Source: Dehalococcoidia bacterium (GTDB taxonomy: Bacteria > Chloroflexota > Dehalococcoidia > UBA2979). Taken from it: 64,000 nt of DNA. Every line of letters begins with the position of its first letter. Positions within the stretch are counted from its first letter, which is position 1. Of this stretch, positions 36,406 through 37,049 are shown piece after piece. The translations under genes and the position numbers were made by a program. The notes beneath the pieces are model-generated. The model was not told the DNA's origin. It ran no database searches and worked only from the letters and a program-made list of their open reading frames with translations. Location of the stretch: the NCBI GenBank assembly GCA_028279505.1, contig JANQNP010000042.1, forward strand, positions 93 to 64,092, given 5' to 3'.

Positions 36406-36702
36406 CTAGTGCTCGTCGTAGTGGTCGCCGTGGGCCGCGTGGCGGTGCTGGTCGTGGATGTAGTCCACGTGGTCGCCGTGCTCGACCGTCGGGTGCCCAC
36501 AGTCTGAACCGTGCTGGTGGCTGTGCATGCCCGCGGGGACGTGCGCGTCGGGGCTGCACTCATCGAAGTGGTCGTCGTGGCTGGCATGCGCGTGGCCATC
36601 GTGCAGGTAGTCGGTGTGGTCTCCGTGCGCCACAGCGACGTGGCCGCAGCCGTCGCCGTGGGCGTGCGCGTGGTCGGCATGCACTGCGTGAGCCTGAGTC
36701 AT
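36406..36702 (-). CDS. Histidine-rich (about 25% His) metal-binding protein with an internal duplication
   Basis: ATG 36702 overlaps the ArsR stop (ATGA). Sequence MTQAHAVHADHAHAHGDGCGHVAVAHGDHTDYLHDGHAHASHDDHFDECSPDAHV...HSHQHGSDCGHPTVEHGDHVDYIHDQHRHAAHGDHYDEH. Repeated HGDHxDYxHDxH unit and three Cys residues. Confidence 0.6.
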   Translation of the reverse strand: MTQAHAVHADHAHAHGDGCGHVAVAHGDHTDYLHDGHAHASHDDHFDECSPDAHVPAGMHSHQHGSDCGHPTVEHGDHVDYIHDQHRHAAHGDHYDEH

Positions 36703-37049
36703 GATGGTGCGTATCCTTCCTCGCGGCGTGTTTCGCCGCTGTGTTCGATGGCGTCCTCGACGATGTGCCACACGTGCTCATCTCGAAGGCGATACCGGAC
36801 TTCCTGCCCTTCCCGCTCTCCGTCAACGACCCCCGCGTCGCGCAGCACGCGAAGGTGCTGCGAGACCATCGGCTGACGGAGACCCAGGTCCTCTACGAGC
36901 TCGTGGACGCAGCGTGAGCCGTGTCGCTGGATGTCCTGGACGATCCGGATGCGGCCCACGTGGGCGACCGACTTGAGCAGCGCCTCGGCGCGGCGCAGAT
37001 CGGGCAGGTCATCCTCTCGTGTCATATTGTGATATTCGCATATCTGCAT
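36699..37049 (-). CDS. ArsR/SmtB-family metalloregulator
   Basis: Winged HTH (CVHELVEDLGLRQPMVSQHLRVLRDAG). C-terminal DEHVWHIVEDAIEHSGE fits the alpha5-site pattern DxHx10Hx2E. N-terminal MQICEYH and alpha3 RCVH supply Cys/His candidates. A shorter alternative start (MTREDD) lies at 37025. Confidence 0.7.
   Translation of the reverse strand: MQICEYHNMTREDDLPDLRRAEALLKSVAHVGRIRIVQDIQRHGSRCVHELVEDLGLRQPMVSQHLRVLRDAGVVDGEREGQEVRYRLRDEHVWHIVEDAIEHSGETRREEGYAPS
37031..37044. promoter_or_regulatory. Inverted repeat GATATtcgcATATC in the AT-rich 5' end of the ArsR gene (candidate ArsR/SmtB operator)
   Basis: 5-bp perfect arms with a 4-nt spacer, inside an AT-rich island (catattgtgatattcgcatatctgcat). 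Confidence 0.3.

What the first reader, a model, noticed from the sequence alone, without database searches (positions are those of the whole stretch)
36406..37049. ArsR/SmtB metalloregulator with alpha5-site signature co-transcribed with a histidine-rich protein carrying an internal repeat
The regulator's C-terminus (DEHVWHIVEDAIEHSGE) fits the DxHx10Hx2E alpha5 metal-site pattern of Zn/Co/Ni-sensing SmtB/CzrA/NmtR-type repressors. N-terminal MQICEYH plus alpha3 RCVH could form an additional alpha3N-type site. Its stop overlaps the ATG of a 98-aa protein that is about one quarter histidine, with a duplicated HGDHxDYxHDxH unit and three Cys. This is a compact sensor-plus-metal-sink operon of a kind not commonly annotated. 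It may be a Ni/Co/Zn storage or detoxification protein analogous to Hpn/HspA-type His-rich proteins. An inverted repeat GATATtcgcATATC lies in the AT-rich 5' end.
Basis: partly seen in the sequence, partly recalled or inferred. Interest (0 to 1): 0.65.

Follow-up and report, generated by a model that had tools for sequence, protein, structure and literature searches.

The report
Zinc-sensor operon with histidine-rich protein
A two-gene operon pairs a SmtB-type zinc-sensing repressor with a small, strongly conserved histidine-rich protein from a widespread family that has no name, no solved structure and no literature, and that most likely binds surplus zinc.

Summary
On the minus strand, an ArsR/SmtB regulator (36699-37025, or to 37049) ends in TGA overlapping the ATG of a 98-aa ORF (36406-36702). 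That ORF has 26 His, 15 Asp and 3 Cys.

- **Regulator.** It carries an exact alpha5 DxHx10Hx2E motif and is 54% identical to PDB 8qkf, which matches the Mycobacterium smegmatis SmtB homologue BigR4.
- **His-rich protein.** It is a real gene (dN/dS about 0.09). It is not low-complexity filler: two 39-aa repeats are 24/39 identical, each predicted as four short beta strands. The family has 1331 representative clusters and no Pfam, NCBIfam or PDB relative.
- **Zinc link.** Relatives lie next to alpha5-type ArsR sensors, Fur-family genes, cobW and L28/L33 paralogues. Some are fused to ArsR HTH domains, to a ZnuB-type permease, or to C2H2 zinc-finger proteins of Amoebozoa.
- **Correction.** MQICEYH is most likely promoter/operator DNA of a leaderless transcript, so the proposed alpha3N site is unsupported.
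- **Best model.** A zinc-derepressed, translationally coupled sensor plus a His-based zinc buffer, working like smtB-smtA but not homologous to SmtA. Ni/Co specificity and a sensor-accessory role remain open.

The parts
37055..37060 (-). -35-like hexamer TTGTCG, 17 nt upstream of the -10-like hexamer
   Evidence: Aligned with CTTGCGA and CTTGCCA in close relatives L089 and L090, and with TTGACA / TTGCAT in L057, L001 and L084. It falls below the threshold of the consensus promoter scan, so the assignment rests on comparison only.
37024..37049 (-). Putative operator overlapping the promoter spacer and -10: ATGCAGAT-ATGCGAAT-ATCACAAT (8-nt periodic units). It includes the inverted repeat GATATGCGAATATC (37031-37044) and the -10-like GAATAT (37032-37037).
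   Evidence: PWM hits of 23.0 and 21.1 bits; the next best in 64 kb is 13.8. The same motif (ATGCGCAnnTGCTAATGT) lies upstream of 34 of 86 related loci, against a control maximum of 11.1 bits. It is conserved as DNA in L089 and L090.
36699..37025 (-). ArsR/SmtB-family regulator, 108 aa from ATG 37025 (probably leaderless). The alternative annotated start at ATG 37049 gives 116 aa.
   Evidence: Pfam HTH_5 2e-13; NCBIfam NF033788 2.5e-24. Best PDB match is 8qkf at 2e-23, 50/92 identical, followed by NmtR 2lkp. The start is inferred from GAATAT-N6-ATG/GTG conserved in L089 and L090.
36822..36956 (-). Winged helix-turn-helix core, including RCVHELV (alpha3) and SQHLRVL (recognition helix)
   Evidence: Pfam HTH_5 match to residues 32-76 of the 116-aa form. 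RCVHELV is conserved in 8qkf and in the adjacent regulators of L001, L015, L057, L059, L084, L089 and L090.
36732..36782 (-). alpha5 metal-site motif D82-x-H84-x10-H95-x2-E98 (DEHVWHIVEDAIEHSGE)
   Evidence: Regex match. The motif is defined as that of canonical Zn(II) sensors in PMC11672702. It aligns with DHHLAHIVVDAIAHASE of 8qkf/BigR4.
36699..36702 (-). ATGA stop/start overlap (translational coupling)
   Evidence: Read directly from the sequence. The same TCATGACC junction occurs in L089 and L090.
36406..36702 (-). His-rich protein, 98 aa, member of an unnamed two-repeat family
   Evidence: 529 homologous clusters. 1331 representative clusters in a profile search. dN/dS 0.09. No Pfam, NCBIfam or PDB match.
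36556..36672 (-). Repeat 1 (residues 11-49): HAHAHGDGCGHVAVAHGDHTDYLHDGHAHASHDDHFDEC
   Evidence: 24/39 identical to repeat 2. Nearly invariant H11, H13, H15, C19, H21, H26, H29, D31, Y32, H34, D35, H37, H39 and E48. Predicted as four short beta strands.
36409..36525 (-). Repeat 2 (residues 60-98): HSHQHGSDCGHPTVEHGDHVDYIHDQHRHAAHGDHYDEH
   Evidence: This is the better-modelled half (pLDDT 75-79).
36306..36405 (-). Intergenic region between convergent genes, with three G+C-rich hairpins; a possible terminator lacking a U-tract
   Evidence: RNA fold -56.5 kcal/mol, z = -3.2 against shuffles. The consensus terminator scan found nothing.

Best explanation
This is a zinc-responsive, self-regulated two-gene operon.

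Mechanism:
1. With little free zinc, the dimeric SmtB-type repressor sits on an operator that fills the spacer and -10 region of its own promoter (37024-37049). It blocks a probably leaderless bicistronic transcript.
2. When buffered cytosolic Zn(II) rises, zinc fills the two inter-subunit alpha5 sites (D82/H84 of one subunit, H95/E98 of the other). DNA affinity drops and the operon is transcribed.
3. Because the stop and start overlap (ATGA), regulator and His-rich protein are made together.
4. The His-rich protein is a cytosolic, beta-rich, two-repeat domain. Each repeat has about ten invariant His plus Cys/Asp/Glu. It binds several Zn(II) ions and so buffers or stores the surplus.
5. Free zinc falls, the repressor returns to its apo form and rebinds, closing a negative feedback loop.

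Shown here: family membership and the alpha5 motif of the regulator; the coupling; reality, conservation and duplication of the His-rich protein; its recurrent genomic and physical (fusion) linkage to alpha5 ArsR sensors and zinc-homeostasis genes; a shared cis-element.

Inferred: zinc as the metal, metal binding by the His-rich protein, its stoichiometry, the operator assignment, and the leaderless start.
For: Regulator:
- HTH_5 and NF033788.
- Exact DxHx10Hx2E, the motif of canonical Zn sensors (PMC11672702).
- 54% identity to 8qkf. Its C-terminal 20-mer and numbering equal the BigR4 alpha5 peptide 101-DHHLAHIVVDAIAHASEDRR-120 of the M. smegmatis SmtB homologue.
- JGI labels several homologues 'zinc-responsive transcriptional repressor'.

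Operon:
- The ATGA overlap is conserved in L089 and L090.

His-rich protein:
- dN/dS 0.09.
- 24 invariant positions among 24 diverse members, mostly His, Cys or Asp.
- AF2 predicts a repeated four-strand unit.

Linkage to sensors:
- An ArsR-like gene lies within 1.5 kb in 10 of 80 genome loci, plus L084, L089, L090 and the acidobacterial L092 (divergent orientation). 11 of these 14 regulators carry the alpha5 motif.
- True ArsR-HTH::His-rich fusion proteins occur in at least 3 clusters of 12-15 members each.

Linkage to zinc:
- Gene order ArsR - His-rich - Fur in L084/85 and L057. cobW, L28 and L33 paralogues lie alongside in L084, and within 6 kb in about 10 other loci.
- Fur - cobW - WD40 - ArsR::His-rich in L095.
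- Fusion to an ABC-3 (ZnuB/MntB-type) permease next to its ATPase.

Cis-element:
- The same 18-nt motif precedes the arsR-led operons and the stand-alone genes.

General metal-binding role:
- About 16 of 143 representatives carry signal peptides or lipoboxes, so the domain also works outside the cytoplasm. That fits a metal-binding module.
Against: - No experiment exists and no characterised homologue was found.
- The structure model is only moderate (pLDDT 68), has no metal ions and has no fold match.
- 70 of 80 genome loci have no adjacent ArsR.
- Many loci lack the motif, e.g. Streptomyces and Corynebacterium, so regulation differs between lineages.
- Adjacent regulators in L017 and L071 are NmtR-like, so some members may serve Ni/Co.
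- The window's Fur-family gene cannot be typed as Zur. No Zur box, zinc transporter or cobW gene was found near the operon in the window.
- The promoter hexamers are weak and failed the consensus scan.
- The operator is not a clean 12-2-12 palindrome.
- The motif PWM was trained on the sequences it scores.
Confidence: 0.55

Rival explanations
1. The His-rich protein is an accessory sensor or regulatory partner of the repressor rather than a sink. It would bind zinc and then dock on the ArsR dimer, or exchange metal with it, and so set the sensor's threshold. Coupled translation would provide the matching stoichiometry.
For: - The domain is repeatedly fused to DNA-binding domains. ArsR HTH fusions: P0196, P0197 and P0208 clusters, and P0028. 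C2H2 zinc-finger fusions in Amoebozoa: Physarum P0212, Cavostelium P0300, and six metagenomic proteins.
- In the P0208 and P0028 fusions the alpha5 ligands of the ArsR part are lost. There the His-rich domain may be the only metal site.
- The ATGA coupling is conserved.
Against: - The window's regulator keeps a complete alpha5 site.
- Most family members are stand-alone genes with no regulator nearby.
- About one in nine representatives is exported, and one is fused to a transporter permease. None of these can act on a cytosolic repressor.
Confidence: 0.2
2. The pair is a nickel/cobalt system. An NmtR/KmtR-like sensor would control a Ni/Co storage or delivery protein in the manner of Hpn/Hpn-like or the His-rich tails of HypB/UreE.
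For: - NmtR (2lkp) is the second-best PDB match.
- NmtR shares the DxHx10Hx2(H/E) motif with zinc sensors.
- Adjacent regulators in L017 and L071 are close to the NmtR alpha5 sequence.
- His-rich proteins often bind Ni.
- The mycobacterial SmtB alpha5 peptide binds Ni(II) in vitro (PMC9241078).
Against: - The fourth ligand is Glu, not His.
- The N-terminus (MTRED, or MQICE) lacks the His-Gly that completes the NmtR octahedral site.
- No urease, hydrogenase, NiCoT or Ni/Co exporter was found in the window or related loci. The neighbours are Fur, cobW, L28/L33 and a ZnuB-type permease.
Confidence: 0.12
3. The His-rich protein is a zinc reservoir or chaperone for zinc starvation, i.e. a Zur-regulon member like COG0523/cobW proteins and the C-minus ribosomal paralogues. 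It would not respond to zinc excess.
For: - It is clustered with cobW, L28 and L33 paralogues and Fur-family genes in L004, L007, L009, L036, L043, L056, L066, L067, L071, L084 and L095.
- Zur-box-like sequences lie in the cobW-His-rich intergenic regions of L009 and L036, and in L017 and L066.
Against: - The window has no Zur-box-like site near the operon. There is one 3-mismatch hit, 13 kb away.
- The gene is the second cistron behind an SmtB-type repressor, a kind that releases DNA when metal is bound.
- The mycobacterial smtB-zur operon, which has the same layout, is described as zinc-induced (PMC7174638).
Confidence: 0.1
4. The His-rich ORF is a spurious reading frame of G+C-rich DNA, or low-complexity filler, and is not translated. 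(Considered and rejected.)
For: High-G+C DNA gives long ORFs in several frames here. The exact 98-aa product is not on record in the protein collection under this start.
Against: - dN/dS 0.09 with saturated synonymous sites.
- Hundreds of homologues across phyla, with position-specific conservation.
- The gene is called in the sister contigs L088-L090.
Confidence: 0.01

Closest known systems
smtB-smtA of Synechococcus PCC 7942, and relatives AzuR-NmtA and BmxR-BmtA: an ArsR/SmtB zinc sensor controlling a bacterial metallothionein
   Same: An alpha5-type ArsR/SmtB repressor controls a small cytosolic multi-metal-binding protein. The logic is derepression by excess metal followed by sequestration. 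The acidobacterial relative L092 even has the divergent gene arrangement.
   Different: - SmtA/BmtA proteins are Cys-rich, with a Zn4Cys9His2 cluster (my own knowledge). This protein has 26 His and only 3 Cys, a duplicated beta-rich unit, and no sequence or Pfam relation.
- Here the genes are co-directional and translationally coupled rather than divergent.
Mycobacterial smtB-zur operon (Rv2358-Rv2359; MSMEG_4486 'BigR4'-zur)
   Same: - This is the closest characterised regulator: 54% identity to 8qkf/BigR4, with the same RCVHELV and DxHx10Hx2E.
- Relatives L084/85 and L057 have the same operon with the His-rich gene inserted between the two sensors.
   Different: - The mycobacterial operon has no His-rich gene. 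The known SmtB target there is the exporter zitA (PMC7174638).
- In the window the Fur-family gene is 1.7 kb away on the other strand, and its subtype is unresolved.
Hpn / Hpn-like / HspA His-rich nickel-binding proteins of Helicobacter
   Same: Small cytosolic proteins with about a quarter or more histidine, thought to store or buffer metal.
   Different: - Those are lineage-restricted, with low-complexity His/Gln/Cys runs tied to urease and hydrogenase nickel supply (my own knowledge).
- This family is position-specifically conserved across phyla. It is duplicated, predicted to fold, linked to zinc genes, and not homologous.
Histidine-triad (Pht) zinc-binding repeats of streptococci, Pfam PF04270
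   Same: The local motif V-x-H-G-D-H-x-(D/H)-Y-(I/L) resembles the Pht HGDHYHY triad (recalled from memory). Both are repeated His-based zinc-linked units in beta-rich segments.
   Different: There is no Pfam match even at E <= 10 and no PDB sequence or fold match. Pht proteins are large surface proteins.
CzrA-CzrB / NmtR-NmtA / KmtR-CDF: alpha5 ArsR sensors controlling exporters
   Same: Same sensor class and same derepression mechanism.
   Different: The controlled gene here is a soluble ligand-rich protein, not a CDF or P-type exporter. No exporter lies next to the operon.

Membership tests
ArsR/SmtB metalloregulators, alpha5 (Zn/Co/Ni) class | ArsR-type winged helix-turn-helix domain | tested here: met
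   Pfam HTH_5 50.2 bits (cut-off 22). NCBIfam NF033788 84.9 bits (cut-off 55).
ArsR/SmtB metalloregulators, alpha5 (Zn/Co/Ni) class | DxHx10Hx2(H/E) ligand set in the C-terminal alpha5 helix | tested here: met
   DEHVWHIVEDAIEHSGE at residues 82-98 of the 108-aa form. Definition taken from PMC11672702.
ArsR/SmtB metalloregulators, alpha5 (Zn/Co/Ni) class | Sequence relationship to an experimentally studied zinc sensor | tested here: met
   8qkf at E 2e-23, 50/92 identical. Its residues 101-120 equal the BigR4 alpha5 peptide of PMC9241078.
ArsR/SmtB metalloregulators, alpha5 (Zn/Co/Ni) class | Inverted-repeat operator (12-2-12 type) in the regulated promoter | tested here: inconclusive
   There is a conserved 18-26-nt element with a 5-4-5 inverted repeat and 8-nt periodic ATGCnnAT units, in the spacer and -10 region. 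It is not a clean 12-2-12 palindrome.
ArsR/SmtB metalloregulators, alpha5 (Zn/Co/Ni) class | Metal-induced release from DNA; zinc selectivity in vivo | not testable with these tools
   Needs EMSA or fluorescence anisotropy with and without Zn/Co/Ni, and reporter assays.
alpha3N-site sensors (CadC, SmtB second site, AztR) | CxC motif in alpha3 | tested here: not met
   The sequence is R-C-V-H-E-L: one Cys followed by His, not CxC.
alpha3N-site sensors (CadC, SmtB second site, AztR) | N-terminal Cys/His ligands in the translated protein | tested here: not met
   - Cys and His occur only in MQICEYH.
- These codons coincide with the conserved promoter/operator DNA. The start conserved in L089 and L090 lies 6 nt after GAATAT.
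- From that start the N-terminus, MTREDDLPDLRRAEALL, has no Cys or His.
- This is not experimentally settled.
NmtR-type Ni/Co sensors | N-terminal His-Gly recruited to complete an octahedral alpha5 site; fourth alpha5 ligand His | tested here: not met
   The N-terminus is MTR... (or MQI...). The fourth ligand is Glu.
BigR/thiol-persulfide-sensing ArsR proteins | A pair of reactive cysteines | tested here: not met
   There is one Cys in the 108-aa protein. The NF040642 BigR score is 52.8 against a cut-off of 155.
Bacterial metallothioneins (SmtA/BmtA) | Cys-rich sequence forming a thiolate cluster; family signature | tested here: not met
   3 Cys in 98 residues. No Pfam or NCBIfam hit of any kind, even at E <= 10.
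Unnamed two-repeat His-rich family (defined here) | Two copies of HxHGxxCGHxxVxHGDHxDY(L/I)HDxHxHxxHxxHxD(E/D) | tested here: met
   Both copies are present with all nearly invariant residues. Best homologue 78% identical, E 5e-36.
Streptococcal histidine triad (PF04270) | Match to the family profile | tested here: not met
   No hit at E <= 10. The resemblance is limited to HGDHxxY.

The most novel reading that the evidence does not exclude
The two-repeat His-rich unit is a previously undescribed, ancient metal (zinc) sensing and binding domain that evolution has used as a plug-in module in several ways:
- as a free cytosolic protein;
- as an exported lipoprotein;
- as a tail on a ZnuB-type permease;
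- as the ligand-sensing domain of transcription factors in two domains of life: ArsR HTH in bacteria, some of which have lost their own alpha5 site, and C2H2 zinc fingers in Amoebozoa.

In this operon it would then be more than a sink. It would be a co-translated partner that tunes the set-point of the SmtB-type repressor.
Probability: 0.25. Interest if true: 0.8.

Novelty: new variant of a known kind. Interest (0 to 1): 0.6.

Why it matters
- **A possible missing zinc buffer.** Cytosolic zinc buffering in most bacteria is unexplained, because metallothioneins are rare outside cyanobacteria and pseudomonads. A widespread His-based zinc-binding protein under SmtB-type control would fill part of that gap for Actinomycetota and several other phyla. 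The family has 1331 clusters at 50% identity.
- **A new structural target.** There is no Pfam family, no solved relative and no fold match.
- **A testable sensor hypothesis.** The fusions to ArsR and to amoebozoan C2H2 factors suggest the domain is a metal-sensing module. Eukaryotic zinc sensors outside fungi, plants and animals are essentially unknown.
- **Annotation fixes.** The 'threonine dehydratase' label on family members is wrong. At least one sister locus has the regulator gene missed by the gene caller.

Tried and rejected
- **Profile search against PDB sequences.** No hit at E <= 10.
- **Pfam at E <= 10.** Tested on five family members; only noise.
- **Literature.** Eleven family motif strings gave zero papers. 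Concept searches returned only general zinc or ArsR papers. The code 8QKF gave zero papers, and Canneva et al. 2005 on Rv2358 is not held. I therefore could not compare the published M. tuberculosis SmtB operator with the motif found here.
- **Consensus scans.** The promoter and terminator scan of 36200-37300 found nothing. A Zur-box search of the window gave one 3-mismatch hit at 23529, unrelated.
- **Typing the window's Fur-family protein as Zur.** Unresolved. PerR, Fur and Nur score above Zur.
- **Expectation that ArsR pairing is universal.** Rejected: it holds in only 10 of 80 genome loci.
- **Nocardia neighbours.** An amino-acid ABC transporter, a CHAT-domain protein and a hydrolase give no functional hint.
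- **Origin of the window.** All named close relatives are Actinomycetota.
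Full report
**1. What is in the sequence**

Both genes are on the minus strand.
- The regulator ORF runs from ATG 37049 (MQICEYH..., 116 aa), or from ATG 37025 (MTREDD..., 108 aa), to TGA 36699-36701.
- That TGA shares three bases with the ATG (36700-36702) of a 98-aa ORF ending at TAG 36406-36408. The junction reads ATGA.
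- The 98-aa product has 26 His (26.5%), 15 Asp, 3 Glu and 3 Cys.
- The duplicated HGDHxDYxHDxH is part of a longer duplication. Residues 11-49 and 60-98 are 24/39 identical.
- The inverted repeat GATATTCGCATATC is at 37031-37044.

**2. The regulator**

- Pfam gives HTH_5 and NCBIfam gives the ArsR/SmtB metalloregulator subfamily NF033788. Both score well above their cut-offs.
- The C-terminus holds an exact DxHx10Hx2E (D82, H84, H95, E98). A recent review describes this motif as the inter-subunit alpha5 site of canonical Zn(II) sensors. NmtR shares it but adds an N-terminal His-Gly (PMC11672702).
- The best solved relative is 8qkf (E 2e-23, 50/92 identical). Its residues 101-120, DHHLAHIVVDAIAHASEDRR, are identical in sequence and numbering to the alpha5 peptide of BigR4, the M. 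smegmatis SmtB homologue (PMC9241078). NmtR (2lkp) comes second.
- The protein has one Cys, so a BigR-type dithiol switch is excluded. Its alpha3 reads CVH, not CxC.

**3. Where the regulator starts, and the operator**

Close relatives (80-86% identical regulators, contigs L089 and L090) align at the DNA level as follows:
- CTTGnnn;
- 5 nt;
- ATGCnnnTATGCGAATAT;
- 6 nt;
- ATG or GTG.

The peptides that gene callers derived upstream of that start differ, except for 'ICEY', which is simply ATATGCGAATAT.

More distant arsR-led operons (L001, L015, L057, L059, L084) show the same layout. It consists of a -35-like TTGACA/TTGCAT, an ATGCG-containing element, a -10-like hexamer, and a start codon a few nt later. 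In L057 a stop codon inside the -10 excludes any upstream translation.

I conclude that 37024-37060 is the promoter/operator of a probably leaderless mRNA, and that the protein starts at 37025.

Caveats:
- The hexamers TTGTCG and GAATAT are weak and failed the consensus scan.
- No transcript data exist.

**4. A shared cis-element**

- I iterated a position weight matrix (PWM) seeded on these promoters over the upstream regions of 86 loci. It converged on ATGCGCAnnTGCTAATGT.
- 34 loci score above 15 bits. The maximum in 380 control windows from the same loci is 11.1.
- The positive loci include the arsR-led operons (window, L089, L090, L001, L015, L059), a His-rich-then-arsR operon (L011, Nocardioides), and many stand-alone His-rich genes. 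The stand-alone genes are in Nocardia, Actinokineospora, Saccharopolyspora, Pseudonocardiaceae and Gordonia.
- In the window the only hits above 14 bits are two overlapping ones at 37024-37049.
- The element overlaps the -10, so part of it is promoter. The ATGCGCA(T) part is the likely repressor site.
- This suggests, but does not prove, that stand-alone family members are controlled in trans by an SmtB-type repressor.
- Streptomyces and Corynebacterium members lack the element and must be regulated differently.
- Limits: the PWM scores its own training sequences, and many positive loci are related Nocardia species.

**5. The His-rich protein is a real, conserved, folded-looking domain**

- It has 529 homologous clusters in the 90% collection, at least 590 genome loci, and 1331 representative clusters by profile search, 572 of them at E <= 1e-10.
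- Against the two closest genes, dN/dS is 0.09-0.10 at dS about 1.
- Among 24 diverse members, 24 columns are invariant. They are nearly all His, Cys, Asp, Gly or Tyr.
- There are two forms. A roughly 98-aa actinobacterial form ends in HGDHYDEH. A roughly 115-aa form has a Cys-containing linker (NPxxCxPxHxC) and ends in HGDHCDDHG. The longer form occurs in Neisseria, Acidobacteriota, Myxococcota and others.
- AlphaFold2 with 120 sequences gives pLDDT 68. It shows the same four short strands in each repeat. Such strands would place alternate His residues on one face.
- The family has no Pfam or NCBIfam model, even at E <= 10, no PDB sequence relative, no fold match, and no literature hit on its motifs.
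- Database names are 'hypothetical protein' or, wrongly, 'threonine dehydratase'.

**6. Genomic and fusion context**

- *ArsR sensors.*
  - An ArsR-like ORF lies within 1.5 kb in 10 of 80 genome loci.
  - The same holds in L084/85, L089, L090 and the acidobacterial L092, where it is divergent, as smtB-smtA is.
  - 11 of these 14 regulators keep the alpha5 motif. Two of them (L017, L071) are NmtR-like.
- *Fur and the zinc-starvation gene set.*
  - L084/85 reads cobW - L28 - L33 - cobW - WD40 - ArsR - His-rich - Fur. The gene caller had missed the ArsR gene there.
  - L057 reads ArsR - His-rich - Fur.
  - About ten further loci have cobW, L28 or L33 within 6 kb.
  - L095 reads Fur - cobW - WD40 - ArsR::His-rich.
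- *Fusions.*
  - Genuine ArsR-HTH::His-rich proteins occur in at least three clusters of 12-15 members each. In two lineages the ArsR alpha5 ligands are lost.
  - One fusion is to an ABC-3 (ZnuB/MntB-type) permease beside its ATPase.
  - Eight C2H2 zinc-finger proteins carry the domain, two of them from transcriptomes of the amoebozoans Physarum polycephalum and Cavostelium apophysatum.
- *Exported forms.* About 16 of 143 representatives have signal peptides or lipoboxes.
- *Orphan genes.* In Neisseria (L081), Kofleriaceae (L093) and many Streptomyces or Nocardia loci the gene stands alone.

**7. Mechanism**

The best-supported reading is a zinc-derepressed, autoregulated, translationally coupled sensor-plus-buffer. 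It is functionally parallel to smtB-smtA but built on an unrelated His-based domain.

- Zinc is favoured for four reasons: the Glu-terminated alpha5 site, the closest relationship to mycobacterial SmtB/BigR4, the absence of NmtR's N-terminal ligand, and the company the family keeps (Fur, cobW, L28/L33, ZnuB-type permease).
- Nothing in the window itself beyond the regulator fixes the metal. The nearby Fur-family gene (38775-39206) is not typable as Zur. No Zur box and no zinc transporter lie near the operon.
- The main rival is that the His-rich protein is a sensory partner of the repressor. The fusions to DNA-binding domains support this. The many stand-alone, exported and transporter-fused members weaken it.
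- A Ni/Co role and a Zur-regulon (starvation) role are less likely here but may apply to some relatives.

**8. Novelty and score**

- The regulator is an ordinary new member of a well-known class.
- The operon logic is known from cyanobacterial metallothionein systems.
- New elements are the effector family (large, phylogenetically broad, unnamed and structurally unmatched) and its recurrent coupling and fusion to metal-sensing DNA-binding proteins, including eukaryotic ones.
- I rate it a new variant of a known kind, interest 0.6.
- A 25% reading remains that the domain is itself a new class of metal-sensor module. That would deserve about 0.8.

Noticed in passing
L084/L085 306-5887; L095 530-4720; also L017, L066, L071: There is a recurrent neighbourhood cobW (COG0523-type) - WD40 beta-propeller - ArsR - His-rich - Fur. 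The WD40 protein travelling with cobW is itself an uncharacterised association.
   Followed up: partly
L084/L085 4694-4996 (+): The public gene call missed the ArsR gene here and instead called an antisense 89-aa ORF (4718-4987, -). tblastn and an ArsR HMM recover the regulator, with its alpha5 motif.
   Followed up: yes
P0212 (Physarum polycephalum), P0300 (Cavostelium apophysatum), and metagenomic P0223, P0245, P0277, P0279, P0313, P0240: Eukaryotic C2H2 zinc-finger proteins carry the complete bacterial-type two-repeat His-rich domain C-terminal to the fingers. They are candidate metal-responsive transcription factors of Amoebozoa.
   Followed up: partly
window 38775-39206 (+): A Fur-family regulator with an HHHH motif lies 1.7 kb from the operon. 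Its best PDB matches are PerR, Fur and Nur, ahead of Zur, so the subtype is unresolved.
   Followed up: partly
window 39279-40916 (-): A 545-aa fusion of a thioredoxin-reductase-like flavoprotein (Pyr_redox_2) with a SAM methyltransferase domain of TehB/tellurite-resistance type.
   Followed up: no
window 32320-33888 (-) and 33928-35283 (+): This is a divergent gene pair sharing a paralogous domain (DYFPD..V..RYE..YKVLTV...). One copy is fused to an XRE-type HTH and weakly matches Peripla_BP_2. The other has a lipoprotein-like N-terminus and no Pfam hit. A further Peripla_BP_2 protein is at 48724-50106.
   Followed up: no
L006, L048, L049, L080 (Corynebacterium), about 20-120 nt upstream of the His-rich gene: Two to four direct copies of TTGAAAAC / TGAAAAC replace the ATGCGCA..TAATGT element. 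The regulator is unknown. They do not fit the Zur-box palindrome.
   Followed up: no
L009 and L036 (Streptomyces), intergenic region between cobW and the His-rich gene; also L017, L066: Zur-box-like AT-rich sequences, e.g. ATGAAAATGGATCCCATTAC and GATGATAACCATTTTCAAT, lie about 150 nt upstream of the His-rich gene. They probably serve the divergent cobW gene.
   Followed up: no
P0111, P0199, P0201, P0213, P0230 and others: About one in nine family representatives has a signal peptide or lipobox, so exported (periplasmic or lipoprotein) versions of the domain exist. P0111 lacks the Cys of the second repeat.
   Followed up: partly
window 36306-36405: The 100-nt gap between the convergent His-rich and GNAT genes folds into three G+C-rich hairpins (z = -3.2) without a U-tract.
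   Followed up: partly
window 25252-28109 (+) and 41577-45152 (-): Two tandem amidase genes, and an 1191-aa protein made of two fused ABC exporter halves.
   Followed up: no
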